Assembly (NCBI GenBank): GCA_050012755.1 | Contig: JBEKGO010000021.1 | Coordinates: forward strand, 1 to 46,220 | Origin: Candidatus Bathyarchaeia archaeon | GTDB taxonomy: Archaea > Thermoproteota > Bathyarchaeia > Bathyarchaeales > Bathycorpusculaceae | DNA: 46,220 nucleotides | Direction: 5' to 3' | Part shown: piece by piece, positions 4,981 to 39,257 of the stretch | How positions within the stretch are numbered: the stretch's first letter is position 1 | Layout of the letters: each line of letters begins with the position of its first letter | Position numbers and translations under genes: made by a program | The notes under the pieces: model-generated | Database searches by the model: none | What the model was told of the DNA's origin: nothing | Seen by the model: the letters and a program-made list of their open reading frames with translations, nothing else

Positions 4981-4993
4981 GTTTTTTTAACTC

Positions 4994-5158: not shown

Positions 5159-5174
5159 ACATTTATCCTCAGGT

Positions 5175-6474: not shown

Positions 6475-6476
6475 AA

Positions 6477-7229: not shown

Positions 7230-7239
7230 TATCTTGCAC

Positions 7240-7680: not shown

Positions 7681-7681
7681 T

Positions 7682-8002: not shown

Positions 8003-8284
8003 TTACCATAACCTCTTAATGCTTTTTTTAAGCCGATCCTCAGGTCTTCCAACTAAAAGCTTACCGTCAATCTCTACGATTGAGCCGTCGCCAAACTCGA
8101 AGTTGAAAACGGCTTGATCTTTGATAATATTCTTAGTTTGACCCTGGCTAATCAAAGTGAATGTATTTTTTGTTTCACCTACAACTATGCCGCCTAAACC
8201 AACATAGCCCCCATGGGAACTTCTGGTGATTTCAGCGCCACTGCCAATAAACTCGTATCGGATAATATCTGGAGTTATCTTCAT
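8003..8284 (-). CDS. rnp1: Ribonuclease P protein component 1 (Rpp29/Pop4)
   Basis: EFIG, GIVVGETKNTF, VEIDGKLLVGRPEDRLKK; canonical position between L29 and S17. Confidence 0.93.
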   Translation of the reverse strand: MKITPDIIRYEFIGSGAEITRSSHGGYVGLGGIVVGETKNTFTLISQGQTKNIIKDQAVFNFEFGDGSIVEIDGKLLVGRPEDRLKKSIKRLW

Positions 8285-8625
8285 TGGGCAGCTGTCTCCT
8301 CGTTTTCTTTAGCTTCAACCTTCTTTGCTGTTGTTTTCTTAGCAGTTGCCTTTTCCTCTTTTGTTGGAACTTTTTCAGCCTTCTTCTTTGGCTTTTCCAC
8401 GGCTTCCACAACTACTTGTCTAATGCCCAATTTCTTTTCGTTTTCAACTGTTAATATTTGAGCAATCGTTTTACGCAGTTCTCTGACGCGTGTTGGGTTT
8501 TCAACAGCTCCGCCTGCGTTAATCATGGTTCTTATGCGGGCTAATTCTGCGCGTAAATCTACAAGTTTTGCCGCTCTGTCCTCAGAAGACATGGAAACGA
8601 TTTCTTTAATCCGTATTATTGCCAT
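8281..8625 (-). CDS. rpl29: 50S ribosomal protein L29 (uL29) with K/A/E-rich tail
   Basis: GGAVENPTRVRELRKTIAQILTVENE. Confidence 0.95.
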   Translation of the reverse strand: MAIIRIKEIVSMSSEDRAAKLVDLRAELARIRTMINAGGAVENPTRVRELRKTIAQILTVENEKKLGIRQVVVEAVEKPKKKAEKVPTKEEKATAKKTTAKKVEAKENEETAAQ

Positions 8626-18144: not shown

Positions 18145-18253
18145 TGGTGCCGGGAACGGGATTCGAGCCCGTGACTTCTGGTCTTAAGGCGTTTAGCCCC
18201 TAACATCTCCAGATTATGAGTCTGGCGCCCTAGCCAGGCTAGGCTACCCCGGC
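18145..18253 (-). tRNA. tRNA-Met(CAT), probably elongator, CCA encoded, 31-nt intron at position 45/46 (18176-18206)
   Basis: Reverse complement: GCCGGGG acceptor, GCCT/GGGC D-arm, CCAGA-CTCATAA-TCTGG anticodon arm, ACGGG-CTCGAAT-CCCGT T-arm, TCCCGGC-ACCA end. Removing the BHB-type intron restores variable loop AGGTC. Confidence 0.9.
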
Positions 18254-25630: not shown

Positions 25631-26785
25631 ATGACCACTCAAGAAATCATCGACAGCATTCTCGCGAAAAACCCTGAAATTACAGAAAAGCAGGTGCTTG
25701 AAAAGCTTCAAGTTGAAAAATCCAGAACAGGGGGGTTGCTCAGCGATGAAACACTTTTGAGGTTAATTGCAGCAAAATACGGCGTTGAAGTTCCACAAAC
25801 CCCAATTCATAATGATGGAAACTTGTCGATAAGCCGTTTGTTTGCTGGACTGAATGATGTTACTGTTGCGGGTCGAATAGTAGCGGTTTTTCCAACTCGT
25901 ACTTTCGAAGGAGAAAAACCAGGAAAATTTGCCACTCTAATGGTTGCAGATAATGATGGTATTCTAAGGGTGGTTTTGTGGAATGACAAGGCTGATTCAG
26001 TTGAAAGGGGCGAGTTAAAAGTTGGACAGGCAATTCGGCTCCTACACGGATACACAAGGCAGGATCTGTATGGTAAAGTTGAGTTGCATATTGGCGTTAA
26101 AAGCCAAATAGAAGTGGAGCCTCAAGAAAAAGCCTGCGAGTGCATAGCCATCGACAAGTTTGTCACCAAAATAAGCTGCCTAAACAAAATGTCTGGGAAC
26201 GTTCATCTCTCTGGCTCAGTTAAAGCTGTTTTAGGCTTGACCAAATTCACCCGAAGCGATCAAAGCGACGGAACTGTTATGCGGTTCACTTTAGCTGATG
26301 ATTCAGGAGAAGTGACTGTGGTTGCTTGGAACGAGAAAGCCAAAGAACTCGAGAAAACTCTGACAGCAAATGCATATTTACAGTTGGGTAACGCTAAAGT
26401 AAAAGAAACCAAAGACGGAGGCATAGAAGTCCATGTTGATTTCACAAGTTTTGTTAATGTTCAAGCCGCCGAGTTGAAATTTGCGAAAATAGCCAACCTG
26501 ACCGAAAACCTAAGCGCCAACGTTGAAGGCGTGGTTTCAGCGATTCTTGAAAGCAAGGAGGTAACCACAGCGAAAGGCGAAACAGTGAAGCTGTTGGTTT
26601 TTGAATTAAAAGATGAGTCAGACACAATTAAGGTGTCAGCTTGGCGGCAACATGCAGAAGCCCTTAATGCACTCAAGATTGGCGATAAACTGCAATTAGA
26701 GAATGTTTATGTGAAAAAGGGCTACGGGGACAAAATGGAGCTTTCTACCCGTAGCTCAACGGTTGCCTCGATTATGCCGCCTTAG
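25631..26785 (+). CDS. rpa: Replication protein A / multi-OB-fold ssDNA-binding protein
   Basis: GGLLSDE...LIAA N-terminal domain and three OB folds (D..G..RVVLWN, DDSGEVTVVAWN, DESDTIKVSAW). Confidence 0.88.
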   Translation: MTTQEIIDSILAKNPEITEKQVLEKLQVEKSRTGGLLSDETLLRLIAAKYGVEVPQTPIHNDGNLSISRLFAGLNDVTVAGRIVAVFPTRTFEGEKPGKFATLMVADNDGILRVVLWNDKADSVERGELKVGQAIRLLHGYTRQDLYGKVELHIGVKSQIEVEPQEKACECIAIDKFVTKISCLNKMSGNVHLSGSVKAVLGLTKFTRSDQSDGTVMRFTLADDSGEVTVVAWNEKAKELEKTLTANAYLQLGNAKVKETKDGGIEVHVDFTSFVNVQAAELKFAKIANLTENLSANVEGVVSAILESKEVTTAKGETVKLLVFELKDESDTIKVSAWRQHAEALNALKIGDKLQLENVYVKKGYGDKMELSTRSSTVASIMPP

Positions 26786-27316
26786 TTTCTTGCGCTTTTG
26801 CATTTGCTTGCCATTGTTCTTGTTAACGTAACCAAAAAAAGTGTGTTCATCCTTTGGCGTGTTACAATAGCTTTCGCAATACTTTGAAATAGTCGGAAAA
26901 ATTGATTTTACACGGTCAAACCGCTTTTTACCTCCAATTTTTTCGTCAATCGTAACAACGTCGTTTGGTTTGCTGAATCGTTCTACTTTGCCGTCTTCCC
27001 GTGTCCGCTCGATTTTTATGCAGTCATCCACCATGCAGTTGAAAACGCAGGCTCCGCAGTAAACACATAGATCTTCGATTATTCCTATTTCTCCAGTTTT
27101 CCAGTAAAGAGCGTTAGTTGGACAAGCGTTAACGCATAACTTGCATTGGACACCAGCGCATGTAAACTTGTTTATTTTTATGCTTCCTTCTTTGAAAAAC
27201 TTTTTTACAACTGTTGGTTTCAAAAGTTCTTGAGATTGCTTCTTTTTTGCCTCTGCAGAGCTGTCTTCTGATAGCATGCCGAATATGTCTATGGCAGAAG
27301 CGTTCTTTTCTGGCAT
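26756..27316 (-). CDS. 2x[4Fe-4S] dicluster ferredoxin-domain protein
   Basis: CAGVQCKLCVNACP and CVYCGACVFNC motifs. Confidence 0.88.
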   Translation of the reverse strand: MPEKNASAIDIFGMLSEDSSAEAKKKQSQELLKPTVVKKFFKEGSIKINKFTCAGVQCKLCVNACPTNALYWKTGEIGIIEDLCVYCGACVFNCMVDDCIKIERTREDGKVERFSKPNDVVTIDEKIGGKKRFDRVKSIFPTISKYCESYCNTPKDEHTFFGYVNKNNGKQMQKRKKLRRHNRGNR

Positions 27317-27370
27317 TTAGCGGAATCCCAACTGGGAATGGATTTGTCTTAAAAATACGCTTTATGAATT

Positions 27371-27386
27371 ATAATTACTTATCCCA
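27371..27386 (+). repeat. Left direct repeat (attL-like)
   Basis: ATAATTACTTATCCCA, identical to 35879-35894. Confidence 0.85.
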
Positions 27387-27987
27387 TCATTTTTGGACTT
27401 ATCATTCATATTTCTCAAGCTTCCGAACCGTTTAGGCTTCCAGTAGAAATGCGGTGTAACACCACTAAAAGTCGCTTCGTCATACTTTCTCCAGTTAGCC
27501 TTGCTCACAAAGACACGAATATTTTTGCAGAAAACACGAGGGGTTAAATGTGGGGCGAAAACATACGCTTACAGCCAAAGTTTATCCGACTCTTGTCATA
27601 AATACGGAGTATTTTTAGCTATGGATAAGCAACGGAATTCTTGAATCAATGATTCTGGCATAAGGTCTTCCACTAACGGAGGGTATAGATGAAATCTTAT
27701 TCAGTTTTTATTTTTTATATTTTTGTGTTCAAATAATTAACTTAAACGCGAAAGGGCTCCTTCCCTCTATGGGGTGAAGTTTTTGGAAGGCCTTGGTTAG
27801 TGCCAACCAGCGCCAGTGACCGTTTTTCTCTGGAGCCTAGCAGCTAATCTTGGAAATCCGTTGATCGCGTCATCGATCCCTAGAATGCCTAACGTTTTTA
27901 ATGCACCTTGAATTGCCTGAATTCTAGACTCAGCTATTTTTCCTGCCACGTACTCGCATGGAAAGTGGCCCCATTTTTTGCGAAAGT

Positions 27988-28130
27988 CTGAAAGACAAGG
28001 GGACCAAAATATTTCTCGACTTTGGCCAGTCTTTCACCTTTGGCTCGGATTTTTTTACGAGCTGGCTTCAACCAAGAGGCTTTAATCGATTGGGCGATAA
28101 CTTTGAGTTTAACATATCGCTCAAGATGAG
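27988..28130 (+). pseudogene. Fragment of MBL-fold metallo-hydrolase (beta-CASP/RNase J-like N-terminus)
   Basis: LKDKGTKIFLDFGQSF...WLQPR...LGDNFEF resembles the xLDFG strand region of archaeal MBL hydrolases (from memory). No HxHxDH motif follows. Confidence 0.55.
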
Positions 28131-28352
28131 TTATCTAATACTCCATGACTTTAAATGGCTTGCAGGCATTTACGATTTTTGTAAAGGCTGTTTATCGACT
28201 TGACGATATTTTATAGTATGACAGCGAGTGACCTTTCTCATAGACTTTTCAACAAAACGTGCCAATGGCTCTTTTTTTCTTTTATCCAAGGTTCACCACA
28301 ACCAAGTTCATTTTCCACGATTACTTAGATATCTCAATTAAATTTTATGTTT

Positions 28353-30263
28353 TCAAAATATCTTCTCCACAATAACAGGCTCGACAGCTACAGGAGTTGT
28401 CTTTGAATACATAAAGTAGGGCTTGCTTGGATTAAGTCCAGAGTAGACAATTATCCAGTCATTACCCTTGTTATCTATCGCTTCAAAATAGCGAGTTCCA
28501 TATTCGTTAGTTACTTCTTGGGTAACCCTAATCAGCGCTGGATACAATTTTTCTTCTTCAATGAGTTTACTAATTTTTTTAAGTTTAAAGATTATATCAA
28601 AACATGCTTGCCGAGTAGGTTTTTTACCGTTCACACTTTTTGTGTGCGCAAAGGAAGAAGAACGCCAAGGGGAAACTAAATCTAATAAATTGAAAATATC
28701 ACGACTCACAAAATTATCCCGGCTAAATATTTTAACATATTCATTTTTTAGTTCGGTATCTTTATGAATTTTTTCGGTCAGTATTCGCATTAATTTAATT
28801 CGTTCTCCAAAAGTCAGCTTGAAGAATGGTTTGCCTACTTCCAAAGTATGTACGATATGATTGATTTCTGCCTCCACTTCCGAAGGTTTTCTTTCTCTAG
28901 TTCGCACTTTCCAGAGTACAACAATGTAAAAATATGAAAGATCTTGTAGAACTCTTTCCATTTCTCCATAAGCATCTGACATCACACTTGAAATCTCTTC
29001 GTATTTATGGAGACGAGAAATGCATTCATCGAGTAATCGATCAAATTCCGCGAGTCCTGTAAGTAAAGGAGGCAAATTAAAGCCAAGCTTGAGGATAATT
29101 AGTTGCACTAACTCAGTTTCGTTGCTTATTTTCAGCGCAGCTCTAATACCAAGTTCTTCTGCTATATTTCGCAAATTGATTACCCCAAAATTTCTTAAGA
29201 TTTTCTCTGGTGTTTCTCGTATACAATACCCAAGAACTCTCAGCGAATAGGTGCCTTGGTATTTTTCAAGGTCAGGCTCTAAATATTTGGGGTCAGATTT
29301 TCTTTCGACTAAATCCGCAAGCTCTTTACTAGGTGTTCTTAACCAATCTGAGAGTTTCTTAAATATTCCATAAGGAGTAATTATCCAATCAGAAAAAGAG
29401 TAAGGAAAACACTCATAGAATCTTTGAACTTCAGGAGCTTCAACATAACCCTCCACGATTAAGCAATTAATAACGTCACAAATGATGTCGTCATTAAGGT
29501 ATGTCTCAATTAACTGTAGACTCTTAATCGAGCGCAACTCTGCATTTTTTTCATTAGCTACTGCATTCAAGTTAATTTTTAGCTGATTATCAAACTCTTG
29601 CGGCAGATTTTTTTCTTCAGAATCTTTAGCAATAAGATTGATAAGGCTGTTCAAAATAACAATATGATGTTTTTTCTTAAACCTGTTTGCTATTATATCA
29701 AACGCCGGTGAATACTGCTCAGTCTTTCTCTGATAAGGCGATTTCAGCCAACCAAGTGCGCCCAGGGTTATTTTTTCATAATGAAGAGTATATGGAAGGA
29801 TTTCTTCTTTAAAAAGTTCAATCCAAGCTTCAGAAAAAATTTGCTCGTTGGAACTAAAGGCGATAGTATAAGCTGGGCTTCGTTTATCAATTTTACGAGT
29901 AATTTTGACTTTTTTTCCAACAATTCTTTCGTATAAAGGACCAAGTTGATGGGCCCAAAATGCTTCTGTGAGACCGTAATACAAAGCATCATAAAGGAAT
30001 ACACGAAGTTCAGCTTCTCTTTCGCTTGAAAGACCCAAGACAGACAGCAAATGGTCTTTACCAATTTTTGAACATATTTCATGGATTATTGGCTCGTATC
30101 CCTTGTTAACAACCTTTAGTCCAGTTTTCTCTGTAATAAAGTTTAAAAATTCTTGTTTATTGTGAAATCTTTTATGAAGATACTCTGCTATGGGAGAAAA
30201 TTGGCGTTCGGGAAGTTTTCTGAACTCAGCTATGGTAATGGGCATGCGCGTCTGCCTTAACAT
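28353..30263 (-). CDS. Hypothetical 636-aa protein with possible C-terminal HEPN (Swt1-like) domain
   Basis: Long AT-rich ORF; EMERVLQD...KLTFGERIKL...RSSSFAH (Rx5H). Confidence 0.6.
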   Translation of the reverse strand: MLRQTRMPITIAEFRKLPERQFSPIAEYLHKRFHNKQEFLNFITEKTGLKVVNKGYEPIIHEICSKIGKDHLLSVLGLSSEREAELRVFLYDALYYGLTEAFWAHQLGPLYERIVGKKVKITRKIDKRSPAYTIAFSSNEQIFSEAWIELFKEEILPYTLHYEKITLGALGWLKSPYQRKTEQYSPAFDIIANRFKKKHHIVILNSLINLIAKDSEEKNLPQEFDNQLKINLNAVANEKNAELRSIKSLQLIETYLNDDIICDVINCLIVEGYVEAPEVQRFYECFPYSFSDWIITPYGIFKKLSDWLRTPSKELADLVERKSDPKYLEPDLEKYQGTYSLRVLGYCIRETPEKILRNFGVINLRNIAEELGIRAALKISNETELVQLIILKLGFNLPPLLTGLAEFDRLLDECISRLHKYEEISSVMSDAYGEMERVLQDLSYFYIVVLWKVRTRERKPSEVEAEINHIVHTLEVGKPFFKLTFGERIKLMRILTEKIHKDTELKNEYVKIFSRDNFVSRDIFNLLDLVSPWRSSSFAHTKSVNGKKPTRQACFDIIFKLKKISKLIEEEKLYPALIRVTQEVTNEYGTRYFEAIDNKGNDWIIVYSGLNPSKPYFMYSKTTPVAVEPVIVEKIF

Positions 30264-30453
30264 TAAGAATATCAGATAAGCTATTTATGCTCTTATAATT
30301 AATGATACTTTAAAAAAGTAGTTTTGATTGTCATAAGAATCTGAGTTTTACTTTATCCACAAGATATGGAAGAAAACGCGAGATATCGCCAGCCAGGGTA
30401 CCAGGTATGTTCCGCTGAACAGTAGGCAGAGAGCGATGAATAGAGCGTTTTAT

Positions 30454-30505
30454 AAAAAAAGGTTTTTGCGGTTGACATCTTCACTTTGGCAGGGGTTCAA
30501 ATCCC
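30454..30505 (+). repeat. att-like motif copy 1 with tRNA T-arm
   Basis: AAAAAAAGGTTTTTGCGGTTGACATC-16nt-TTCAAAT-CCC. Confidence 0.7.
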
Positions 30506-30721
30506 AACGATGACTGCGGAGTAAGCAAGGGCACCACAAGTTCTTCCGTGTTTATAGCTGGTAACCACGAGCCTGCTTGGTGCAGCGAACTTTTCCGTAA
30601 ATCTACCTTTTCTAAGGGTCATCAATTTGCGTTCCAGTTGCTTTTCGGCTGAGCCAAGTTACCTTTCACCTAATGACCTTACAAGCCAGCAGGAGTCGGA
30701 CCTGCACCCAGTTTCTACCCG

Positions 30722-30877
30722 CTACTTGTGGCACCAAATGTGGGCTTTGACTACCTCAGGCGACTTTCCATCAGTGCAGAAAGGAAACTTTCCATGATGA
30801 CATTTGAGGTAAGGTGGAAATGGCTGACATTTCCCTTCAGCTGCGCGAATGAGTCTTCTGAGTTCTTTTTCACTCAT
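30722..30877 (-). CDS. 51-aa Cys/His-rich microprotein (putative zinc finger)
   Basis: Not in ORF track: MSEKELRRLIRAAEGKCQPFPPYLKCHHGKFPFCTDGKSPEVVKAHIWCHK. Confidence 0.5.
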   Translation of the reverse strand: MSEKELRRLIRAAEGKCQPFPPYLKCHHGKFPFCTDGKSPEVVKAHIWCHK

Positions 30878-30958
30878 GTAGGGTTCTTCAATAGTTCCTC
30901 TTATAACGACGATTTAAGAAACTTGCGGTGAGTTGGAAAAAAGTCAAGAAACTAACTG

Positions 30959-31017
30959 AAAAAGGGGGAAATGCTGAGTGAAATCCCGAGCCCATCGGGG
31001 TTCAATTCCCCCCCCGC
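30959..31017 (+). repeat. att-like motif copy 2 with tRNA T-arm/acceptor-like end
   Basis: AAAAAGGGGGAAATGCTGAGTGAAATC-15nt-TTCAATT, then a C-run ending in GC. Confidence 0.65.
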
Positions 31018-31100
31018 TTGAATGGTAGCGTAACTAGCTTTGTTTACTTTGTAAATAGGCTTATTAATGAACATAAATATAGAAAGATTGAGTCCTGATA

Positions 31101-32003
31101 GTGTTACCCGTTGGTCTTGCTGATCTCGTCAAAATAGTTCTCGAGGATTGGGATTGGGATCAGCTTCCCTCTTCGACTGAAGAAATATGGGATGCATTAT
31201 TGTATCCGTTGTTTCTTGGCGCAAACACTCGAAGCGCACAAGCCGCCTATGCAAAAAGAATGCTGGGCGATATGATAGAATTTAAGGTTGCACAATCGAT
31301 CCCAACTGATAGGTCGTGGAGCAAGAAGGCCTTAGCGATAGTTGACATGCAACTTGGCGGCATAAAAGGAACAGCTGGTGAAGGCCTCAAAAGAGCAATC
31401 CTAAACGCTACGAGACAAGAGATCGAGGGATTTAAGCTAAGTAGAACGATAGGGGATGCTTTGCTTTTCTTTGATAAGGAGAAACTTGATGTTGCTAAAA
31501 TTACCTCTCTAAGAAACAACAAGCTTGCGACGAAGGAATTGGTTGATCGTCTTGCGCACTCCGTTTTTGATGTACGCTATATAAAAGGGGTTTTGTGGCT
31601 TTATTCCTGCGGAATAGCAAAAGACCTTGTACCCCCCAATTCTCATGTGCTTAAGTTTCTTGACGAATGCGGTTATCCAGGGTTTGCTTATTCAAGAGAT
31701 AATCCCCGAGAGGACTGGGATATCTTTGCACCAGCCTGCAACTGCATGGAAGACGTAGCGAAACAGGTAAGCATAGAATTGCATCAAAGTGTCACTCCGA
31801 AACAAGCGCAGTTTGCTGTCTGGTATCTCCAAACATCCAGAGGATTGGTAGACTACCGAAAAAAACAACTTACGCCTCGCCTTTTAATCGAGTTTTTGGA
31901 TTTTGAAAGCATTTCATTTGATGAACTACGCGATAGATTAGAAGATATAGAAGCATTGGGGCAATTAGCAAATGATCTGAACGCCTTCCTAAAGGCAAGT
32001 TAA
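31101..32003 (+). CDS. Hypothetical protein, distant HhH-GPD/Ogg-like DNA glycosylase fold
   Basis: IKGVLWLYSCG..DLVPPNSHVLKFL...QFAVWY pattern resembles the Ogg2 family K...D-x-H...LWY pattern. Confidence 0.5.
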   Translation: MLPVGLADLVKIVLEDWDWDQLPSSTEEIWDALLYPLFLGANTRSAQAAYAKRMLGDMIEFKVAQSIPTDRSWSKKALAIVDMQLGGIKGTAGEGLKRAILNATRQEIEGFKLSRTIGDALLFFDKEKLDVAKITSLRNNKLATKELVDRLAHSVFDVRYIKGVLWLYSCGIAKDLVPPNSHVLKFLDECGYPGFAYSRDNPREDWDIFAPACNCMEDVAKQVSIELHQSVTPKQAQFAVWYLQTSRGLVDYRKKQLTPRLLIEFLDFESISFDELRDRLEDIEALGQLANDLNAFLKAS

Positions 32004-32250
32004 GAGGGTCAAATGGAAACGCGAAGAAATTTTTGTGAAATCAAGCCTATAGAATTGTGACTACGAGAATATTGATTTCTGCATCAACCGCATTATCGAC
32101 TTTGCTAAACATTAAGCAATAATTTTGATCAGGTAGTAGTGTCGAGTCTTCAAAGAACAATTCTCAATGACGTGGGAATCAATGATTGAAAGACTTCTGC
32201 AACCACCGCTGAATCCTTCACCGACCCCATCATAGTGATGGTGTAACCAA

Positions 32251-32745
32251 ATGCTTAATCAACGCGAAAACTATTCAGTAAGCCCTCGGTGTTATGACTC
32301 AATGGTTCGGGATTGGCTTAACCCGCCCAGAATTAAAGGAACAATAAGCGAGGTTGGAAAGGATTTTTGGTGCCCAAAATGCGAACGTAAGGTTTCAGGG
32401 AGAACTACCCCGCTTATTCATGAAACAAACGTTCATCTCTGTAGGGAACTCAGTAAAGCCAAAGGACATAATTATTGTCATGTGGGAAACTTGTGGAAAT
32501 GTAACCGATGTCAATTTGAAAGTCGGCACTTAGGTGAAGTGAAAGCACACCTTGAGGAAACTCATTATTATGAACTGCATCCCGACAAAGTTCCAAAATC
32601 AGAATTTCCGTTTGGCGGTCATTTGATATTTCTTGAACCGGGGCTTTGGAAGTGCAAGCATTGCGATTACAGGGGACGAGAGAATAAGGTGTTAAAGCAT
32701 GTCAAGGATGTACACAAACTTTGCATTGACTCCCAAGACACTTAA
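32251..32745 (+). CDS. Multi zinc-finger protein (C2H2-type)
   Basis: WKCNRCQF...VKAHLEETH and WKCKHCDY...VLKHVKDVH, plus WCPKC...HETNVH. Confidence 0.75.
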   Translation: MLNQRENYSVSPRCYDSMVRDWLNPPRIKGTISEVGKDFWCPKCERKVSGRTTPLIHETNVHLCRELSKAKGHNYCHVGNLWKCNRCQFESRHLGEVKAHLEETHYYELHPDKVPKSEFPFGGHLIFLEPGLWKCKHCDYRGRENKVLKHVKDVHKLCIDSQDT

Positions 32746-32813
32746 TGAGATGAAGTTGCTTTAACTCCAACTATGAAACTGGAACTGAGAAACAGTCTTA
32801 AACTACACAATAG

Positions 32814-32873
32814 AAAAAGAGGATTTTGGGGTGAAATCTCTCGCAGGGTGTAGGATCAAATCCCTTCCGGCCA
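32814..32873 (+). repeat. att-like motif copy 3 with degenerate tRNA 3' end
   Basis: AAAAAGAGGATTTTGGGGTGAAATC-16nt-ATCAAAT-CCCTTCCGGCCA. Confidence 0.65.
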
Positions 32874-33158
32874 AAAACTATAAAAAACTTTAGACCGCAG
32901 TCACGGCATAGGTAACGCTGAGTTTCCCCTGGCGAGTGTATCTTAGGTCATCTTGTAATTTCGTTGACTCCCACATTCGGGGCAGACTTTTTCTTCCAAC
33001 ATACATTCATCTCCTTGAATTTTTTTTGCTGAAATAAAGAAAAAGGGGTTTTGCAGCTAATTTGTTGAGGTTGCCCGCACTTGGCGAAAATCTGAGGGAA
33101 TTTTAATTAGCAAAATTTAAATTAATTTTCATAATATCATCTTTTAGGAGTATTCTGC

Positions 33159-33341
33159 ATGTCAAGAAGTCGAGATAGCGATGGAAGGATTAGACAATTT
33201 CGCGATGACGCTCAGATAGGATCGGTTGCTCCTGATATTCAAGAACATTTTGGGTACCGTTATGATAAAACCGTTGGGTCAGTTCTCGAAGAAAACGATG
33301 TTACGTCTGTTAGTGAGTTAAGAAGAAAGATAAACCGATAA
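33159..33341 (+). CDS. 60-aa hypothetical protein
   Basis: AGGAG SD upstream and a T-rich tract after the stop; RSRDSDGRIRQ...SVSELR. Confidence 0.65.
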   Translation: MSRSRDSDGRIRQFRDDAQIGSVAPDIQEHFGYRYDKTVGSVLEENDVTSVSELRRKINR

Positions 33342-33587
33342 TATCAAAGCGCATTTTCGCTTTTTTTCTATCTAGTATTTGGTCACTATTCAATGTATTG
33401 TCAGTTTTTTTCTGATAATGTTAATTTTTCAACTTTACAAATAGTTTGAAAAATCACCTTTTTTGCCCGTTTATGGCACTTGGAGATTTTTGCTGATTGA
33501 AAAGCATTCTATCAAAAAATCTAACAGCTGAACCGAGTTATGAGAGGTTGCTAATTCAACTTGAGAAAATAAAAAAGATTCCCGTTG

Positions 33588-34025
33588 TTAACTGTGCTCG
33601 CCAAAATTATAATAAATCTTCGCGACAAAACAGCCGTCAGGTTTGTCAATAGCAACTACTTTGAAGCCATTTTTTGTCCAGAAACGTCGGACTTTGCCAA
33701 CATCGTCCACAGAACTAATTTCACCTGTCACTCGTTTGATTCGGTTTTGCTTCAGATAGGAGAGAATATGCATGACTGTATTGCTTCCTATTCCTTGGTC
33801 TCTTAAACGATCTGATTCGATCTCTATATCGTTCCAATATGCTGTACAATTATCCAAAATTGAAACCGTAGTTTGGCCAATCTCCGCCCATTCCCCCGAA
33901 ATCAACGCCAGAATTTTAACAATGATTACATCTTCCCGAGCACATCTGAGTGAAAAATCTAAGACTCTGAGCTTGAGGTGTTGACTGAGTCCAATTTCAA
34001 AATCGATATAGTTGTTATCTCTCAT
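33588..34025 (-). CDS. GNAT family N-acetyltransferase
   Basis: DIEIE..RLRDQGIGS (motif A), RRFWTKNGF. Confidence 0.8.
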   Translation of the reverse strand: MRDNNYIDFEIGLSQHLKLRVLDFSLRCAREDVIIVKILALISGEWAEIGQTTVSILDNCTAYWNDIEIESDRLRDQGIGSNTVMHILSYLKQNRIKRVTGEISSVDDVGKVRRFWTKNGFKVVAIDKPDGCFVAKIYYNFGEHS

Positions 34026-34103
34026 GACAGATGCCTCAGCCAGTAATCAATCTAGTTCTATGATTTGCATCGTCGTTTCGTCTTATATAGTTAGGTTAAA
34101 GTC

Positions 34104-34769
34104 TCAAAAGGTTCCAGAAACTATTTTTGAAATAAGATTTGATGTTATCTTTACTGCGATTTCTACTTCGGACATTGTTCTTTCTCTAATCGCGTCAAAC
34201 TGTCCAGCGTCATATAGTTCCCAGACACCTTTTCCCGATTCCTTCTGCCCCAAGCCCAACCTTCCCATAAGGGCATTTGTTGTTTTCGGGTACATTGGGT
34301 AAATCCTCGGGTCATTCCTAAAAAGCAAAATTCCGACATCCCCCAAGTCAACAACCTTAGTCTTGAAGTAGGTTTCATACAGAGCTTCTTGAGTATCGAT
34401 ATTGTGCATCAAAGATCTCATGTAAAGGGTGGGGATATCATGCCTTGATATTCCAGTCCCGATTAGGATTAAGTCAGGGTTTTGGTCGGTTTTCTGTTCG
34501 ATCAGTTTCCAAGATGCCTTGAAGAAATCGTAAATTTCAAGAAGGGTAGTTCTTTCTTCCTCAGGCTTCCATTTCCAAATCTCTTTTGGGGGCTCAAGTT
34601 TATTCTGCAGAGGGAATTCACGGCTAAAGACTCCGCCCAAAACAAAATCACGCTTCTTGCAAGGATTAAATTTCATTGAACTCCTGCTCTGTTGTCTCTC
34701 ATTTGGTGGCACGTAGCACTCTATGTCGAAGTAGATTACTTCGGTGAATCGCGGGTCGAAGTTAACCAT
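34104..34769 (-). CDS. DEDD/RNase H-like 3'-5' exonuclease family protein
   Basis: YFDIECY (Exo I), GISRHDIPTL (Exo II), VVDL, IRERTMSEV (Exo III-like). Confidence 0.75.
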   Translation of the reverse strand: MVNFDPRFTEVIYFDIECYVPPNERQQSRSSMKFNPCKKRDFVLGGVFSREFPLQNKLEPPKEIWKWKPEEERTTLLEIYDFFKASWKLIEQKTDQNPDLILIGTGISRHDIPTLYMRSLMHNIDTQEALYETYFKTKVVDLGDVGILLFRNDPRIYPMYPKTTNALMGRLGLGQKESGKGVWELYDAGQFDAIRERTMSEVEIAVKITSNLISKIVSGTF

Positions 34770-34855
34770 GATATTTGATTTCCTTTGTTTTGACTTATTG
34801 ATTTTTGTTAAAAAAAACTGTTGATGATTTTTGAGATAGGAAAATTGCTCCTAAA

Positions 34856-34942
34856 TTACTTCGGAGCATTACCGCGACCCTTTCCTGATTTGCCGCCAGT
34901 TGTACTAGGATAGTTTGGGTTCCCACCCTTGCCTTTGCCCAT
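34856..34942 (-). CDS. 28-aa Gly/Lys-rich micropeptide
   Basis: Not in ORF track: MGKGKGGNPNYPSTTGGKSGKGRGNAPK, with strong SD GAGGTGA 4 nt upstream. Confidence 0.65.
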   Translation of the reverse strand: MGKGKGGNPNYPSTTGGKSGKGRGNAPK

Positions 34943-35045
34943 TTTCTCACCTCTGCCCATTGATCTCATGAGCCAATACTCTATTATATCGTACTAATCC
35001 ATAAAGTTTTTGTTGGTGACTGCCTTATAGACATAATGATAGCAG

Positions 35046-35741
35046 TTGGATAGAGAACGGCGCACTAATCCAGGCTTCCTTACAAACAACGAAACTGAAA
35101 GAGACAGAAAAAGAACAGAAGACTTTGTCAGGAGTATTACGAAACATACTTATCATTTATGTGATGCATGCGGCGTTCGCGGTGGAACTGGCCATTGGCA
35201 CTGCAAGAGATGTAATGCTTATTTTTGCTATAAGTGCGGGAAAGATTTTGCTGCATACCAAAACAAGGTTGCTCCCGATTGTCCAGCATGCGAAATAGAA
35301 TTGCACTCAGAAAGAGACTATCAACCATTTTCTGATGAGCAGAAAATACTCAGATATGTTACATCTACGCAGGTTACGGAAATTCGGAATAGAGGGGATT
35401 TGTTTGATCGGCTCTCTCGACTATTCAATAGAGACCTGCTCTATATTGAAAGCATATGGTCTAATCTTGCGCAACAGAACCCATCACTGATAAAACAAAT
35501 TACTGCCAAATTCAAAGATGAGGTGCTAAAACAACATTACGAACGAGCACAATTCGAAGCCCTTCATCCTGAGCATAAGAGTGAGAATCTAATTGTTCCT
35601 GAACCTATTAAGCTCAAAGATGACGGGAAATTAGACATTAAGGACGCCAAACCTATTGATGGGCTTGAGTTCGAATGGAAGCAAGGAAAAATGAGCCCCG
35701 TAGACCAGAAAACCTACAGAAGCAAGCTTGATGAGCAATAA
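35046..35741 (+). CDS. Hypothetical protein with RING/PHD-like 8-Cys zinc domain
   Basis: CDAC...CKRC...CYKC...CPAC. Confidence 0.7.
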   Translation: MDRERRTNPGFLTNNETERDRKRTEDFVRSITKHTYHLCDACGVRGGTGHWHCKRCNAYFCYKCGKDFAAYQNKVAPDCPACEIELHSERDYQPFSDEQKILRYVTSTQVTEIRNRGDLFDRLSRLFNRDLLYIESIWSNLAQQNPSLIKQITAKFKDEVLKQHYERAQFEALHPEHKSENLIVPEPIKLKDDGKLDIKDAKPIDGLEFEWKQGKMSPVDQKTYRSKLDEQ

Positions 35742-35800
35742 AAAAAAGGGAAATGCGGGTGACATCTCCACTGGGTTGTCGGCTCAACTAAACCCCAGTC
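35740..35800 (+). repeat. att-like motif copy 4
   Basis: AAAAAAAAGGGAAATGCGGGTGACATC-16nt-CTCAACT. Confidence 0.7.
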
Positions 35801-35830
35801 TCCATCGAAACTTTGAAAAATTGAAGGATT

Positions 35831-35894
35831 AAAAGAAAAAGAGGGGAGCTTGCGGGAGACATCGCCACTTTCTAGAGGATAATTACTTATCCCA
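35831..35894 (+). repeat. att-like motif copy 5 fused to the right 16-bp direct repeat (attR-like)
   Basis: AAAAAGAGGGGAGCTTGCGGGAGACATC-15nt-ATAATTACTTATCCCA; local dyad GGATA-ATTACT-TATCC. Confidence 0.75.
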
Positions 35895-35935
35895 GACTTT
35901 CAGGCTCTGTTCCGTAGAATACAGAGCCTTTTTCA

Positions 35936-36763
35936 TCATCGTCTAATCTTTATCGTACTCTGCTGCCACACTCTTTCAAATAGAAGCCGTTGCATGTATG
36001 GAAGCCCAGGAACCCGCAATGTCAAGCCAAGGCTTTTTGAATCGTCACTCTTGTTTGGAAAACCTACGAAAGCTTCCACATCATCTATGATGATTAGGCA
36101 AGAGGCCTTTGACATTATTGAAATCATGGGCGACCTAAGCTCTTTAAAAAACTTGTCGGAGTCTGGTGGAATTTTGTTTGCAACTCTTCGAAATTCAATA
36201 AAGTCCTCGTTTTTGAGGTTCTCGTCAAAGTGTTGTCCTGGCTGCAGTATGCATACGGATCGTGTTTTTACTTTTTTTTGTTGAGATTTGATTATAGAGC
36301 TGTTAGCTGGGCTTACTTCGGGTGGGTAAGGTTCCACTATTAGGATACTGGTTTTTGCAGAAGCAATTGTTAGTGAGGCTTTTCTCCTTATAGCCACGTT
36401 TCCTTTCACTGTCCAAACTAAATCCTCATTGGTGTTTCTTCCTGTTTGGTGCATCTCAGCAAGAAGTCTTGTGGCTTCATCGGCAGCATTAAGATACGAT
36501 TTTCTCATGCGGTCAACGAGAATTTCTGGTGATAGTGCATTATAGATAACTGGTCTGCCACTTTGAAACTCTACTGCGCCCATTCCAACCAACTGCTCTA
36601 GTATCTCATAGATTTTTGTTCGAGGCACACCTGAGGATCTTTGAATCTCCGCTACGCCCGAAGGACCCAACGATGCTAGGGAGGAAAAGACCCTTGCCTG
36701 ATAGACGCTCATGCCTAGCTTGCAGAGAGAGTGTGTAAGCTGTTCTTGTTGCTCAATACTCAT
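35936..36763 (-). CDS. TrmB family transcriptional regulator
   Basis: LGMSVYQARVF...SGVPRTKIYEILEQL...GRP HTH; divergent from the ABC operon. Confidence 0.92.
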   Translation of the reverse strand: MSIEQQEQLTHSLCKLGMSVYQARVFSSLASLGPSGVAEIQRSSGVPRTKIYEILEQLVGMGAVEFQSGRPVIYNALSPEILVDRMRKSYLNAADEATRLLAEMHQTGRNTNEDLVWTVKGNVAIRRKASLTIASAKTSILIVEPYPPEVSPANSSIIKSQQKKVKTRSVCILQPGQHFDENLKNEDFIEFRRVANKIPPDSDKFFKELRSPMISIMSKASCLIIIDDVEAFVGFPNKSDDSKSLGLTLRVPGLPYMQRLLFERVWQQSTIKIRR

Positions 36764-36819
36764 TAATGTCACTCCTAAAGTAACAACAAATCTATAAGCA
36801 ATCTGCAGCCTAATAACAG

Positions 36820-37614
36820 TTGAGGCAAACGAGCGTGACCAAACCCAGCCAAGCTTCCACAAAGTTAACGAATGAACCAGTTATCGAAGTGTCAAACCTC
36901 GTCAAAATCTACAAAGAAGGAGCAATCACAGCCGTCAATGGGCTTAACTTAAAAATCAGGAAAGGCGAAATATATGCGTTAATAGGCGCTAACGGCTCAG
37001 GCAAAACCACTGCAATAAACTTGCTGACGGGAAGCCTTTTTCCTACTTCTGGCTTAATTAAAGTTCTGGGCTTGGAAATTCCTGCGAAGCGCCGTTTGGC
37101 TGCAGCTCAAATCGGAGTAGCCCCCCAAGAATATTCGTTATACAATGACCTTACTGTGGAGCAGAACATCTGGTTCTTCGCACAGTTATACGAAATGAAG
37201 CACGCATTGTTTGAGAAAAGACTCACGGAACTCTTGCCTATTTTGAAGCTGGACGAGCGAAGGAAAACCACTGTTTTTAATCTTTCAGGGGGCATGAAAC
37301 GCAGAGTCAGCATCGCCTGCGCTCTTGTTCATGAGCCTAAAATTGTGTTTTTTGATGAGGCAACGGTCGGCATTGATCCTGTGTTGCGCGCTTTCTTTTG
37401 GGACTATTTCCGTTCCTTAACCGAAGCGGGCTTAACGATTGTAATAACCTCGCATGTTATGGATGAAGCTGAAAGAGCGGATATGATAGGATTGATGCGT
37501 GCAGGGAAGCTGATAGAGGAAGGCACACCTGAAGAAATCAAGCAAAGGCACTCAGCATCTTCCATTGAAGAAGTTTTCATTAAATTAAGCCAAGGAGAGG
37601 TCGCAGATGAGTAA
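36820..37614 (+). CDS. ABC-2 type exporter ATP-binding subunit
   Basis: GANGSGKT, LSGGMKRR, FFDEATVGID, SHVMDEA. Confidence 0.95.
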   Translation: MRQTSVTKPSQASTKLTNEPVIEVSNLVKIYKEGAITAVNGLNLKIRKGEIYALIGANGSGKTTAINLLTGSLFPTSGLIKVLGLEIPAKRRLAAAQIGVAPQEYSLYNDLTVEQNIWFFAQLYEMKHALFEKRLTELLPILKLDERRKTTVFNLSGGMKRRVSIACALVHEPKIVFFDEATVGIDPVLRAFFWDYFRSLTEAGLTIVITSHVMDEAERADMIGLMRAGKLIEEGTPEEIKQRHSASSIEEVFIKLSQGEVADE

Positions 37615-38764
37615 ACGCCAAAGCTTTTCTGTGACCAGGATTTTAGCTGTTAGCCGGCGGGTTTTGAAGCAGATTTCCCGTGACAGACGCACGTTAGGTA
37701 TGATGATTATCATGCCTGCGGTAATCATGCTTATTTTCGGCTTCGCTCTCGGCGGACAAGTCAAAAATGTGCCAATTGCAGTAGATAATCATGATGCGGG
37801 TTTTAGCACAATTAACGCCTTAAACTCTACCGTCAGCCTGCATCTCGGCAACAGCATTCTTTCAGCTTTGCAAGCAGACGACCGAGTAAGCGTCACTAAA
37901 ACTAGTTTCGGCTCGGGCAAAACAGGGGTAGATAACGGCACGTACTTTGCAGCAATCGAAATCCCATCAAACTTTTCCCAATGCGTCTTCCTAAGAACCA
38001 GTGGGCAAAACCAGAACGCTTCTATGCCCATTTATCTTGACGGCACAAAGCCAACAATTGAAGCCAGCATCATAGGAGCTCTGCAAAGTGCCCTGCAGAC
38101 CGCTTCAGGCGGAGGCGGAGTTGTTCTTGATAAGCAGTTCGCATTTGCTGGCGTTGAATATTCTGGGTTGGATGTGAGTATTCCGTCGGTGATTGCGTTT
38201 GTGTTGACTTTTCTCGTTTTGCTCATATCCCTTATTATAGTGTCAAGGGAGACCACTTCGGGCATCCTGCCAAGGCTTTACACGACGCCTCTTTCAGCCA
38301 TCGAAAGACTTCTAGGTTACTCAATAGCTCTACTAGTACTGGGCATCCTCATGGTAGCAGTCATCCTCGGCATTGGCGTAGGCGTTTTCGGCGCAGTCGT
38401 TCAAGGAAGCATTTACCTGCTTTTCTTGGGCGCCGTGCTTTATGCTTTGGCTCATGTTTTTATGGCAATATTTCTTTCAAACTTCGCTAAGAACGAACTA
38501 CAAGCTGTTCAAATTGCGCCCCTAATAGCTCTCCCAAGCATGGCACTAAGCGGTATGCTAATACCCGTGAATAGTTTTCCGAGTTGGGTTCAGACTGTAG
38601 CGAAGTTCATCCCCATGTACTATGGAAATAAAATATTTGAAGGCATAATGTTGAAGGGTTACGGATTAGGCAATCTTGTTTTGGAGTTCGCTGTGGTAGG
38701 CGGGATTGCTTTGCTTTTCCTATTTCTGGCTTTGTTGACAGTGAAGGACAGAATCACCGATTGA
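37607..38764 (+). CDS. ABC-2 type exporter permease
   Basis: QISRDRRTL N-terminus, extracellular loop, RET.SG...TPL, LSGMLIP. Confidence 0.93.
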   Translation: MSKRQSFSVTRILAVSRRVLKQISRDRRTLGMMIIMPAVIMLIFGFALGGQVKNVPIAVDNHDAGFSTINALNSTVSLHLGNSILSALQADDRVSVTKTSFGSGKTGVDNGTYFAAIEIPSNFSQCVFLRTSGQNQNASMPIYLDGTKPTIEASIIGALQSALQTASGGGGVVLDKQFAFAGVEYSGLDVSIPSVIAFVLTFLVLLISLIIVSRETTSGILPRLYTTPLSAIERLLGYSIALLVLGILMVAVILGIGVGVFGAVVQGSIYLLFLGAVLYALAHVFMAIFLSNFAKNELQAVQIAPLIALPSMALSGMLIPVNSFPSWVQTVAKFIPMYYGNKIFEGIMLKGYGLGNLVLEFAVVGGIALLFLFLALLTVKDRITD

Positions 38765-38908
38765 AGTCAAATTTCCTTTTTCAGGGAGAAGATTATTTCT
38801 ATTCGAAAAAGGAAGTTTTGTCACTGCATATTTATTAATTGTTAGTCTGTAACTCATTGATCTGACTCGGATTTTAAGTGAGTCAACATTAAGTGAGGTA
38901 TCTATCCG

Positions 38909-39181
38909 ATGAGCGAAATGCAGCGAGCATCCAATCAACCAATTTCCAGCTCGCCAAAACACAGCAACCTAGTGCTAGGCATCGTCATGCTTGGAACGCT
39001 TATGGGTTCATTGGACAGCACTATCGTTCTGCTGGCTTTTCCAGTCATAAATGACAGCTTCCACTCCGACCTAGTAACGTCACTGTGGATTATTGCTTCA
39101 ATAGCTATTTTGGCGATTGCAGGAGTATTGTCCTACATTAGGGGAAGGGATATAAGAAAACAGGCGCCCGCTAAATCTTAA
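38909..39181 (+). pseudogene. Internally deleted MFS (DHA2-like) transporter
   Basis: N-terminal LGTLMGSLDSTIVLLAFP...SLWII is joined in frame to a last-TM-like ILAIAGVLSYIRG; only 90 aa. Confidence 0.7.
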
Positions 39182-39257
39182 GCAGTTATGCTAAAGCCTA
39201 ATTACTTTCCTGCCCCAATTAACCTTAATTTATGGCTTAGCAGTTTGGAGGCATGGC

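What the first reader, a model, noticed from the sequence alone, without database searches (positions are those of the whole stretch)
30454..35894. Cassette-like array punctuated by tRNA-T-arm-mimicking att sites (candidate integron-like or serial-integration system)
Seen: five co-oriented intergenic motifs at 30454, 30959, 32814, 35740 and 35831 share A5-8-GG(GG)-spacer-TG(C)GGGTGA(C/A)ATC. Each is followed by 15-16 nt ending in GG, then a 7-mer: TTCAAAT, TTCAATT, ATCAAAT, CTCAACT, ATAATTA. Copies 1-3 continue like tRNA T-arm/3' ends (GGGG-TTCAAAT-CCC; GGGG-TTCAATT-CCCC..GC; ..CCCTTCCGGCCA), yet no tRNA 5' half is present. The motifs fall between unrelated cargo genes and never inside them. 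In copy 5 the 7-mer position is exactly where the island's 16-bp terminal repeat begins. Established: one class of tyrosine integrases crosses over in the 7-nt tRNA T-loop and leaves an element arm joined to a tRNA 3' fragment. Inference: these are recombination sites of one integrase family acting in trans. They either delimit mobile gene cassettes (integron-like, but not attC-type) or are stacked attR scars of serial integrations. Their reverse strand ends in CC(C)TTTTT, so they may double as terminators.
Basis: partly seen in the sequence, partly recalled or inferred. Interest (0 to 1): 0.85.

Follow-up and report, generated by a model that had tools for sequence, protein, structure and literature searches.

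The report
Stacked integration-site scars in a Bathyarchaeon
The five repeated motifs are the right-hand junctions left by a family of mobile DNA elements that tyrosine integrases insert into tRNA genes and a few other fixed sites in Bathyarchaeia, so this stretch is a pile of mostly integrase-less inserted units, a known kind of thing in a little-studied group.

Summary
Five co-oriented intergenic motifs lie at the stated places, against 0.56 pattern matches expected by chance.

Each motif is a conserved arm of about 35 nt: an A-run, a G-run, then GCGGGTGAYATCTCCAC. A short hairpin "core" follows 8-10 nt later.

The same arm occurs about 20 times in this genome. It occurs in at least 118 genome stretches and at least 120 metagenome stretches, almost all Bathyarchaeia. 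There it is usually fused to the T-arm-to-3'-end part of a real tRNA.

Comparison with relatives settles its nature:
- One relative has an empty site with a single 14-bp core.
- Two relatives carry inserts of 2.35 kb and 39.8 kb at that core; this genome carries 8.5 kb.
- Every insert is flanked by the repeated core and ends in the arm.
- The 39.8-kb insert begins with a tyrosine integrase carrying a zinc ribbon.

The motifs are therefore attR-type and tandem-junction sites. Window 27371-35894 is a stack of decayed or non-autonomous integrated units.

The features that define integrons, terminators and tRNA-like RNAs were tested and not met. The arm's own role, probably protein binding in the recombination complex, is inferred. 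This is a new member of a known kind.

The parts
27371..27386 (+). Left copy of the 16-bp direct repeat. This is the attL core of the island, lying in the promoter-side spacer of the ferredoxin-like gene 26756-27316 (-).
   Evidence: The repeat pair appears (D18). The same core is single in the empty site of relative G018 and duplicated around the inserts in G015 and G003.
27365..27529 (-). Remnant of the last 55 codons or so of a tyrosine integrase. It reads toward and into the attL core. The rest of the gene is missing.
   Evidence: tblastn with the G003 integrase C-terminal ORF gives 64% identity over 55 aa, E 3e-19. The same arm region is conserved in G003 and G015.
27387..35878 (.). Inserted island of 8.5 kb, a stack of integrated units. 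Its cargo is mostly ORFs with no family match.
   Evidence: The island is bounded by the direct repeat. The stretch is missing between the ferredoxin gene and the homologue of window 38909 in G018. Pfam and PHROGs find nothing for 28353-30263, 31101-32003, 33588-34025 and 34104-34769.
30454..30508 (+). Junction site 1: conserved arm plus a T-arm-like core.
   Evidence: nhmmer E 8.7e-12. Sequence read.
30959..31016 (+). Junction site 2: conserved arm (GAAATC variant) plus a T-arm-like core.
   Evidence: nhmmer E 4.6e-08. Sequence read.
32814..32872 (+). Junction site 3: conserved arm (GAAATC variant) plus a degenerate T-arm-like core.
   Evidence: nhmmer E 2.5e-09. The same sub-type, with the same right flank, is seen at C5:21443 and L005.
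32885..32987 (-). Broken remnant of the integrase N-terminal zinc ribbon (two CxxC pairs), directly right of site 3. It marks the start of a further unit.
   Evidence: Two collinear tblastn pieces with the G003 and C26 integrases, E 0.001-0.012. This is weak on its own. The arrangement matches the mini-element in L085.
33040..33055 (+). Half-arm: the A-run, G-run and TTTTGC only. It lies about 30 nt from the zinc-ribbon start, where L085 has its full arm.
   Evidence: Read and compared with L085. This part is inference.
35740..35797 (+). Junction site 4: a perfect arm followed by a non-tRNA hairpin core.
   Evidence: nhmmer E 5.9e-11. It has no T-loop-like 11-mer. Many foreign metagenome contigs match only 35740-35771 and diverge on both sides (table 7).
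35836..35894 (+). Junction site 5, the attR of the island. It has the variant arm (GGGAGACATCGCC type) plus the right copy of the 16-bp repeat at 35879-35894.
   Evidence: Seen (E 6.9e-08). The same variant arm and core close the inserts in G015 and G003. It also stands joined to the left-arm sequence at C26:33143.

Best explanation
Each motif is the right-end junction of an integrated mobile element.

What the site is made of:
- A conserved element-side arm: an A-run, a G-run, then GCGGGTGAYATCTCCAC.
- The recombination core 8-10 nt further on. The core is a short inverted repeat with a loop. In most members it is the T-arm-to-3'-end part of a tRNA gene. In copy 5 it is a non-tRNA site containing ATAATTACTTATCC.

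How the elements are arranged:
- They belong to one Bathyarchaeia family moved by tyrosine integrases with an N-terminal zinc ribbon.
- In the free circle the order is arm, core, then the integrase gene with its 3' end toward the core.
- Integration duplicates the core. It leaves the integrase next to the left copy and the arm next to the right copy.
- Repeated integration beside existing copies builds co-oriented arrays.

What the window holds: 27371-35894 is such an array at a hotspot beside a ferredoxin-like gene. Its units have lost their integrases or never had them. Two remnants are left.

Shown here: the insertion boundaries, the core duplication, the link to tRNA genes and to integrases, and the arrays.

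Inferred:
- The integrase cuts within the core.
- The arm, centred about 22-24 bp from the loop and partly palindromic, is a protein-binding site of the recombination complex. The binder could be an integrase domain or an accessory factor.
- Integrase-less units can be moved by integrases encoded elsewhere in the genome.
For: Empty versus filled site:
- G018 has one core between the ferredoxin gene and the homologue of window 38909.
- G015 has a 2.35-kb insert at that core, G003 a 39.8-kb insert and this genome an 8.5-kb insert.
- Each insert is flanked by the repeated core, and each has the variant arm at its right end.
- In G015 the right flank equals the G018 empty-site flank.

Split of a joined site:
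- At C26:33143 the arm, the core and the left-arm sequence stand joined.
- In the window the same pieces are split between 35836-35894 and 27371-27420.

Integrase next to the core:
- The G003 insert starts with a zinc-ribbon tyrosine integrase in three overlapping ORFs. Its last codons run into the core.
- The intact homologue at C26 matches PF00589 at E 9e-23 and an InsA-type zinc ribbon. Its nearest solved structure is XerA.

Minimal element: in L085 an intact tRNA-Ala is followed by a truncated integrase, the arm, and a 25-nt repeat of the tRNA 3' part, 662 bp apart.

Link to tRNA genes:
- In 23 of 38 tRNA-site pairs the tRNA lies upstream on the same strand. Most of those cores match its 3' end, several exactly.
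- 55 of 185 cores and 62 of 177 cores match a tRNA 3' part of this genome at 18 or more of 20 positions.

Arrays: adjacent sites are co-oriented in 66 of 67 pairs and in 54 of 57 pairs. Median spacing is 1374 and 1246 nt.

Distribution:
- The exact 14-mer is found in 22 of 151 genomes of the class, spread over many families. The reversed control hits twice.
- 15 of those 22 genomes also hold the integrase, against 43 of the other 129 (my tally; Fisher p 0.004). Related genomes are not independent, so this is weak.

Window remnants: integrase pieces at 27365-27529 and 32885-32987, each directly right of a core.
Against: - The window holds no intact integrase.
- No + strand tRNA heads the array.
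- The cores of copies 1-4 cannot be assigned to any tRNA. How these four inner sites arose is not shown.
- The inner cores differ from the outer repeat. Simple serial integration at one target does not explain them.
- The right flank of copy 5 does not match the empty-site flank of G018, G015 or G003. About 3 kb (35895-38907, a TrmB-like regulator and an ABC transporter) is also extra in this genome. The right boundary has therefore been remodelled.
- 62 of 66 units between sites show no integrase match. Units are as densely coding as their surroundings, 0.79 against 0.82. That fits decay poorly.
- The arm stays near-perfect in sites whose cores look decayed. Plain neutral scars would not do this.
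- No recombination event was observed. The only hint is one metagenome contig that joins 27384 to 39185 with 24 letters on the short side. It probably comes from a relative.
- The loci were fetched with a pattern that requires an intact arm and T-arm. Conservation of those positions in one site per locus is therefore by construction.
Confidence: 0.8

Rival explanations
1. An integron-like cassette system. The units between motifs are non-autonomous gene cassettes. Each carries its own arm-plus-hairpin site. Integrases encoded elsewhere insert, excise and shuffle them as units. On this reading the arrays are working gene-capture platforms rather than scars.
For: - 62 of 66 units lack any integrase match, are 0.1-6 kb long and are gene-dense.
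- The arm is kept intact even where cores are odd.
- G000 and G015 share the same short integrase-tail arm of about 55-58 codons next to the core but carry different cargo. Similar tails of 30-60 codons recur beside cores in metagenome loci such as L147, L159, L180, L226 and L232.
- A one-gene segment of about 1 kb is shared at 85% identity between two genomes, lying between sites with different cores.
- One unit is duplicated within the array of L019.
- The genome holds several intact integrases of the family.
Against: - No platform integrase or fixed entry site is present in the window.
- Genes between sites lie on both strands, 72 plus to 74 minus on the left and 66 to 74 on the right.
- The sites do not fold as single-strand hairpins. 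Their z-scores run from +1.30 to -1.67.
- Integrase loss after integration and tandem integration are already described for archaeal elements (passages of PMC8371274 and PMC6563490). They can give the same picture.
- The shared-cassette case is a single example.
- No circular unit was seen.
Confidence: 0.15
2. A host expression signal. The reverse strand ends in a T-run, so the motif would be an archaeal terminator, or a promoter or operator, placed between genes.
For: - The minus strand ends in C-run plus T5-8.
- One of the five sites (35769-35749, minus) is called terminator-like.
- In the L085 mini-element the arm lies about 35 nt upstream of the integrase start, on that gene's strand.
Against: - Neighbouring genes show no strand preference on either side.
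- Terminator-like calls in the region number 5 against 5.2 expected.
- The exact arm is missing from 129 of 151 sampled genomes of the class and patchy among families.
- It marks the ends of insertions.
Confidence: 0.03
3. A structured RNA gene: a tRNA-like mini-RNA, or a 3' half of a split tRNA with a common leader.
For: - A canonical T-loop and stem is present, and in many members a full acceptor 3' strand with CCA.
- The 5' block is conserved.
Against: - No Rfam tRNA match in the region even at E 10.
- Folding is no better than shuffles.
- Full-length cognate tRNAs exist, and they head the arrays.
- The block does not pair with the varying acceptor strands (read).
- In the window the acceptor part is unrecognisable.
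- Non-tRNA cores carry the same block.
Confidence: 0.02

Closest known systems
att sites of tyrosine integrases that target the T-loop/3' part of tRNA genes. Examples are mycobacteriophage Ms6 in tRNA-Ala (PMC1762012, abstract in a search listing) and the tDNA islands of the Islander database (PMC4383910, abstract in a search listing). The 'sublocation' scheme of Williams 2002 is recalled from memory and was not read here.
   Same: - The element carries a copy of the tRNA 3' part.
- Integration regenerates the tRNA at one end and leaves a displaced fragment at the other.
- The integrase gene lies beside the core.
- The direct repeat is 14-25 nt.
   Different: - A near-invariant arm of about 35 nt sits at a fixed distance from the core. 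It is shared by members with at least ten different cores (Ala, Arg, Leu, Pro, Gly, Cys, Phe and others, plus non-tRNA).
- The host group is Bathyarchaeia.
- The integrase has an N-terminal zinc ribbon and a C-terminal extension.
Tandem arrays of integrated elements in archaea, with loss of the integrase after integration (passages of PMC6563490 and PMC8371274).
   Same: One target is re-used, giving co-oriented stacks. Many integrated elements lack an integrase.
   Different: - Units here are very short, with a median of about 1.2-1.4 kb and a minimum of about 0.1 kb.
- They are numerous and gene-dense.
- The cores within one array can differ.
Integrons (IntI, attI, attC cassette arrays).
   Same: Co-oriented recombination sites punctuate single-gene-sized units with unrelated cargo. 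A tyrosine recombinase is involved.
   Different: - There is no resident platform integrase.
- The sites are not attC-type folded hairpins.
- The genes are not co-oriented.
- Arrays are headed by a tRNA gene or another chromosomal target.
SSV-type 'suicidal' integrases of hyperthermophilic archaea (PMC7253208, abstract in a search listing).
   Same: Both are archaeal tyrosine integrases with tRNA-derived cores close to or touching the integrase reading frame.
   Different: The gene is not split in two. It lies wholly on one side of the core. In the G003 type only its last five or so codons run into the core.

Membership tests
Integrative-element attachment junction (tyrosine integrase, attL/attR) | The inserted DNA is flanked by a direct repeat that equals a single copy in the empty target. 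| tested here: met
   There is a 16-bp repeat at 27371 and 35879. The core is single in G018 and duplicated around the inserts in G015 and G003.
Integrative-element attachment junction (tyrosine integrase, attL/attR) | A tyrosine integrase gene lies at one end, next to the core. | tested here: met
   This is met in relatives and other loci: G003, L085, and L171, L186 and L233. The window has remnants only and no PF00589 match.
Integrative-element attachment junction (tyrosine integrase, attL/attR) | The core equals the 3' part of a tRNA gene, and the intact tRNA stands at the other end. | tested here: inconclusive
   This is met in other loci: 23 of 38 pairs, several with exact matches, and L085. 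It is not met for the window's five copies. The window has no + strand tRNA, its cores match at 15-16 of 20 positions or not at all, and copy 5 uses a non-tRNA target.
Integrative-element attachment junction (tyrosine integrase, attL/attR) | Integration or excision is actually catalysed at these sites. | not testable with these tools
   The only hint is one contig that joins 27384 to 39185 with a short side of 24 letters.
Integron | A resident IntI-type integrase with attI and a promoter at the head of the array. | tested here: not met
   There is no PF00589 match in the window. In other loci the arrays are headed by tRNA genes.
Integron | attC sites: imperfect palindromes that fold as single strands. 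| tested here: not met
   Folding the five sites as DNA gives z-scores from +1.30 to -1.67. Only the small core hairpin forms.
Integron | Cassettes are mostly single, co-oriented, promoterless genes. | tested here: not met
   Neighbouring genes lie 72 plus to 74 minus on the left and 66 plus to 74 minus on the right. The window's units hold genes on both strands.
SSV-type integrase system | attP lies inside the integrase gene, which is split into two parts on integration. | tested here: not met
   The integrase lies wholly on one side of the core in L085, G003, L171 and L186.
Transcription terminator | The motif stands downstream of genes in a fixed orientation, in core and variable regions alike. 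| tested here: not met
   There is no strand bias. The scan finds 5 hits against 5.2 expected. The motif is found in 22 of 151 genomes.
tRNA or tRNA-like RNA gene | A match to the tRNA covariance model, or a stable conserved fold. | tested here: not met
   No RF00005 match in 30300-36100 at E up to 10. Folds are no better than shuffles.

The most novel reading that the evidence does not exclude
The arm-plus-hairpin sites define a gene-cassette system native to Bathyarchaeia. On this reading, integrase-less one- to three-gene units each carry the invariant arm and a short left arm. Zinc-ribbon tyrosine integrases encoded elsewhere capture, stack and reshuffle them at tRNA genes and a few other anchors. 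That would be a working analogue of integrons, built on double-stranded tRNA-type sites, with the invariant arm as the shared handle that lets integrases of different core specificity use the same cassettes.
Probability: 0.15. Interest if true: 0.7.

Novelty: new member of a known kind. Interest (0 to 1): 0.4.

Why it matters
- **A boundary marker for mobile DNA in Bathyarchaeia.** Bathyarchaea are abundant, uncultured sediment and peat archaea, and little is known about their mobile DNA. The arm is a short, almost invariant signature of the right end of one widespread element family. A simple scan can therefore map insertion boundaries, hotspots and cargo in MAGs where integrases are missing or broken.
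- **A testable attP layout.** The order is arm, about 8-10 nt, core, then the integrase 3' end. This can be tried with the integrases present in this genome.
- **An open question worth following.** The many short, gene-dense, integrase-less units raise the possibility that this group acquires genes by cassette-like capture.

Tried and rejected
**Readings considered and dropped**
- Coding reading of the arm. I examined codon-position patterns by eye on both strands. I dropped this because the spacing to the T-loop varies by 8, 9 or 10 nt, no stop or start is conserved, and neighbouring ORFs show no strand bias.
- Split-tRNA 3' halves or a tRNA minihelix. The arm does not pair with the changing acceptor strands, and full tRNAs exist.
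- A second copy of the arm in the left arm. None was found within 220 nt downstream of 18 tRNA genes next to sites. Only three weak matches with four mismatches turned up.

**Searches that gave nothing useful**
- Conserved neighbouring gene family. Clustering 1930 flanking ORFs gave no family tied to the sites. The largest family, a secreted protein in 24 loci, lies on either side.
- Viral contigs: 0 matches to the pattern.
- Pfam on short frames of 27362-28292 found no integrase. The remnant showed up only with tblastn.
- Weak Rfam hits in the region all fall below the family thresholds. They are Hammerhead_II at E 1.2, CRISPR-DR6 and SNORD37.

**Sequencing runs**
- No RNA holder was listed.
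- All four runs laid were contigs, so parts without cover say nothing.
- No unit-level presence or absence was seen.
- The single joint 27384 to 39185, with a side of 24, is too weak to count.

Only the printed part was used.
- Supplementary files were not opened. The att-site tables of PMC6563490 and PMC11705971 may list Bathyarchaeia att sequences that I did not see.

**Literature**
I found no description of this arm motif. The searches were:
- four terms, 9 papers. I read passages of two of them.
-.
- the review PMC8371274 has 0 occurrences of 'arm-type', 'Bathyarchaeota', 'zinc' or 'T-loop'.

Full report
**What is in the sequence**

The window is a whole 46,220-bp contig (C21) of a 2.41-Mb, 65-contig genome. 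Its tRNAs carry introns. Loci sharing the motif are named Bathyarchaeota or Bathyarchaeia in 76 of the 80 listed titles.

The five motifs are at the stated places on the + strand, with the stated make-up. A degenerate pattern finds exactly these five sites. Shuffles expect 0.56 matches, and none of 100 shuffles reaches the observed count.

One qualification concerns tRNA likeness. In copies 1-3 it is limited to the T-loop and stem, and copies 4 and 5 have none. No tRNA model matches the region.

**The motif is a family**

A profile built from ten copies finds 24 places in this genome at E below 0.1, and 20 at E up to 0.01. They are clustered and co-oriented:
- five in the window;
- two downstream of tRNA-Leu on C4;
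- four on the minus strand of C26.

An exact pattern that requires the arm and a T-arm gave these counts:
- at least 118 stretches in the genome collection;
- at least 120 stretches in the metagenome collection;
- none in viral contigs.

Aligning 182 distinct copies shows a sharp left edge at the A-run. Then come a G-run, a nearly invariant 18-nt centre (GCGGGTGAYATCTCCAC), a variable 8-10 nt, and the T-arm. The fetch pattern forces conservation of 25 of these positions in one site per locus. The A-run, the G-run, the TGCG, and the second and third sites per locus are free of that bias.

**What the variable part is**

In many members the part after the arm is a real tRNA 3' end, from the T-stem to the discriminator and often CCA. 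Types seen are Ala, Arg, Leu, Pro, Gly, Cys and others.

- 55 of 185 cores and 62 of 177 cores match a tRNA of this genome at 18 or more of 20 positions.
- 19 loci also hold a tRNA gene. In them the tRNA lies upstream on the same strand in 23 of 38 tRNA-site pairs, and its 3' end mostly matches the core, several times exactly.
- L085 shows a whole minimal element. It has an intact tRNA-Ala, a truncated integrase on the other strand, the arm, and a 25-nt repeat of the tRNA 3' part 662 bp after the first copy.

**The decisive comparison**

Left of the island lie an RPA-like OB-fold gene and a ferredoxin-like gene. Both are conserved in relatives.

| Genome | State of the site | Detail |
|---|---|---|
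| G018 | empty | One copy of the 14-bp core follows the ferredoxin gene, then the homologue of window 38909 |
| G015 | 2.35-kb insert | Core duplicated; right flank equals the G018 empty-site flank; insert ends in the variant arm |
| G003 | 39.8-kb insert | Same arm at its right end |
| This genome | 8.5-kb insert | Repeat copies at 27371 and 35879 |

The G003 insert starts with a tyrosine integrase in three overlapping ORFs: a zinc ribbon, a middle part and a catalytic part. Its last codons run into the core. The insert goes on with provirus-like genes.

In this genome, at C26:33143, the arm, the core and the left-arm sequence stand joined. In the window the same pieces are split between the island's two ends. 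This is the classical relation of attP, attB, attL and attR.

**The integrase**

An intact member is the 442-aa ORF at C26, next to tRNA-Ala.
- It matches PF00589 at E 9e-23.
- It matches an InsA-type zinc ribbon at E 3e-05, just under that family's cut-off.
- Its best solved relative is archaeal XerA.

The family is found in 58 of 151 sampled genomes of the class. The exact arm 14-mer is found in 22 of the same 151 genomes, patchily over families, with 2 hits for the reversed control. By my tally, 15 of those 22 hold the integrase, against 43 of the other 129. Fisher p is 0.004, but kin are not independent, so this is weak.

**Anatomy of the window's island**

From left to right:
- the core copy at 27371-27386;
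- a remnant of the last 55 codons or so of the integrase at 27365-27529 (E 3e-19);
- a 636-aa ORF with no family match;
- sites 1 and 2;
- two ORFs;
- site 3, followed at once by a broken zinc-ribbon remnant at 32885-32987 (weak) and a half-arm at 33040-33055;
- five ORFs;
- site 4;
- 97 nt later, site 5 with the right core copy.

I read this as at least two, and probably four or five, stacked units. Cargo proteins have no Pfam or PHROGs family. The exceptions are a C2H2-like finger protein and one weak PHROG hit.

**Arrays in general**

- Adjacent sites are co-oriented in 66 of 67 pairs and in 54 of 57 pairs.
- Spacing runs from 81 nt up to the limit of the loci, with medians of 1374 and 1246 nt.
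- Only 4 of 66 units between sites hold an integrase-like match.
- Units are about as densely coding as their surroundings, 0.79 against 0.82.
- Short integrase tails of 30-60 codons next to cores recur.
- One 1-kb single-gene segment is shared at 85% identity between two genomes, lying between sites with different cores.

**What the arm does**

This part is inferred.
- Neighbouring genes show no strand preference on either side.
- The terminator scan is at chance.
- The sites do not fold better than shuffles.

So neither an expression signal nor an attC-like folded site is supported.

The arm is always on the side of the core away from the integrase gene. Its centre lies about 22-24 bp from the loop, as read and from copy 5. 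Its centre is an imperfect palindrome.

The most likely role is a binding site in the recombination complex, for an integrase domain or an accessory protein. I put this at about one in two. In mini-elements such as L085 the arm also lies just upstream of the integrase start. A role in integrase control is therefore possible there, but it cannot be general.

**What remains unexplained**

- The inner cores of the window's array differ from the outer repeat and from any tRNA.
- The arm is better kept than the cores.
- The right flank of site 5 does not match the empty-site flank of relatives, and about 3 kb further right is also extra in this genome.

These points leave room for the cassette reading, which I put at about 0.15.

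**Comparison with what is known**

Tandem re-use of one site by tyrosine recombinases, and loss of the integrase after integration, are both described for archaea (passages of PMC6563490 and PMC8371274). Bathyarchaeia proviruses with integrases are also described (passages of PMC10848311 and PMC11705971).

I found no description of the arm motif in the searches named under Tried and rejected. Supplements were not seen.

**Verdict**

It is a new member of a known kind, with a useful class-wide signature and an open question about cassette-like mobility.

Noticed in passing
window 35895-38907: A TrmB-like regulator (35936-36862, minus) and a two-gene ABC transporter (36820-38764) lie between the island's right repeat and the gene that follows the empty site in relatives. 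They are missing there in G018, G015 and G003. They may be an older insert whose right junction is gone.
   Followed up: partly
window 18145-18253 (-): An intron-containing tRNA-Met was missed by default ARAGORN. Rfam and ARAGORN with introns both found it. Two weak arm-like stretches lie upstream of it, near 18718 and 18627 on the minus strand.
   Followed up: partly
G000 C4:7400-14200: Two kinds of att remnant sit side by side. tRNA-Thr (minus) is followed by two anticodon-loop-to-3'-end copies without the arm. tRNA-Leu (plus) is followed by one such copy and then two arm-type sites. A second integrase class with a different crossover place therefore seems active in the same genome.
   Followed up: no
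G000 C26:12500-63300: tRNA-Ala with an intact zinc-ribbon integrase sits at 61835-63294. The next Ala-type cores on that strand are about 45 kb away, at 18356 and 17153, followed by arm sites with less certain cores at 15846 and 12573. This may be a very large stack or a large element. Inside it are a joined (attP-like) site at 33143, a 648-aa SMC-like ATPase and a 1009-aa ATPase/acetyltransferase-like ORF.
   Followed up: partly
window 18965-19955 and 21276-22066: Tandem DNA repeats with periods of about 120 nt and 288 nt (D1, D3, D5, D8, D12). They probably encode repeated domains of large surface proteins.
   Followed up: no
window 2150-8380: Several low-complexity direct repeats are rich in CTT/GCT (D2, D4, D6, D10, D11). 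On the other strand they suggest Lys/Glu/Ala-rich protein tracts.
   Followed up: no
L019 3710-7930 (genome-contig locus): Six co-oriented arm sites lie within 4.2 kb. One unit of about 670 bp, bounded by two sites, occurs twice in the array.
   Followed up: partly
window 35740-35771: In four peat and wetland metagenome runs, many contigs match only the 32-nt arm of site 4 and diverge on both sides into other tRNA-type cores. The arm is therefore a common repeat in those communities, and it breaks assemblies (tables 7 and 8).
   Followed up: no
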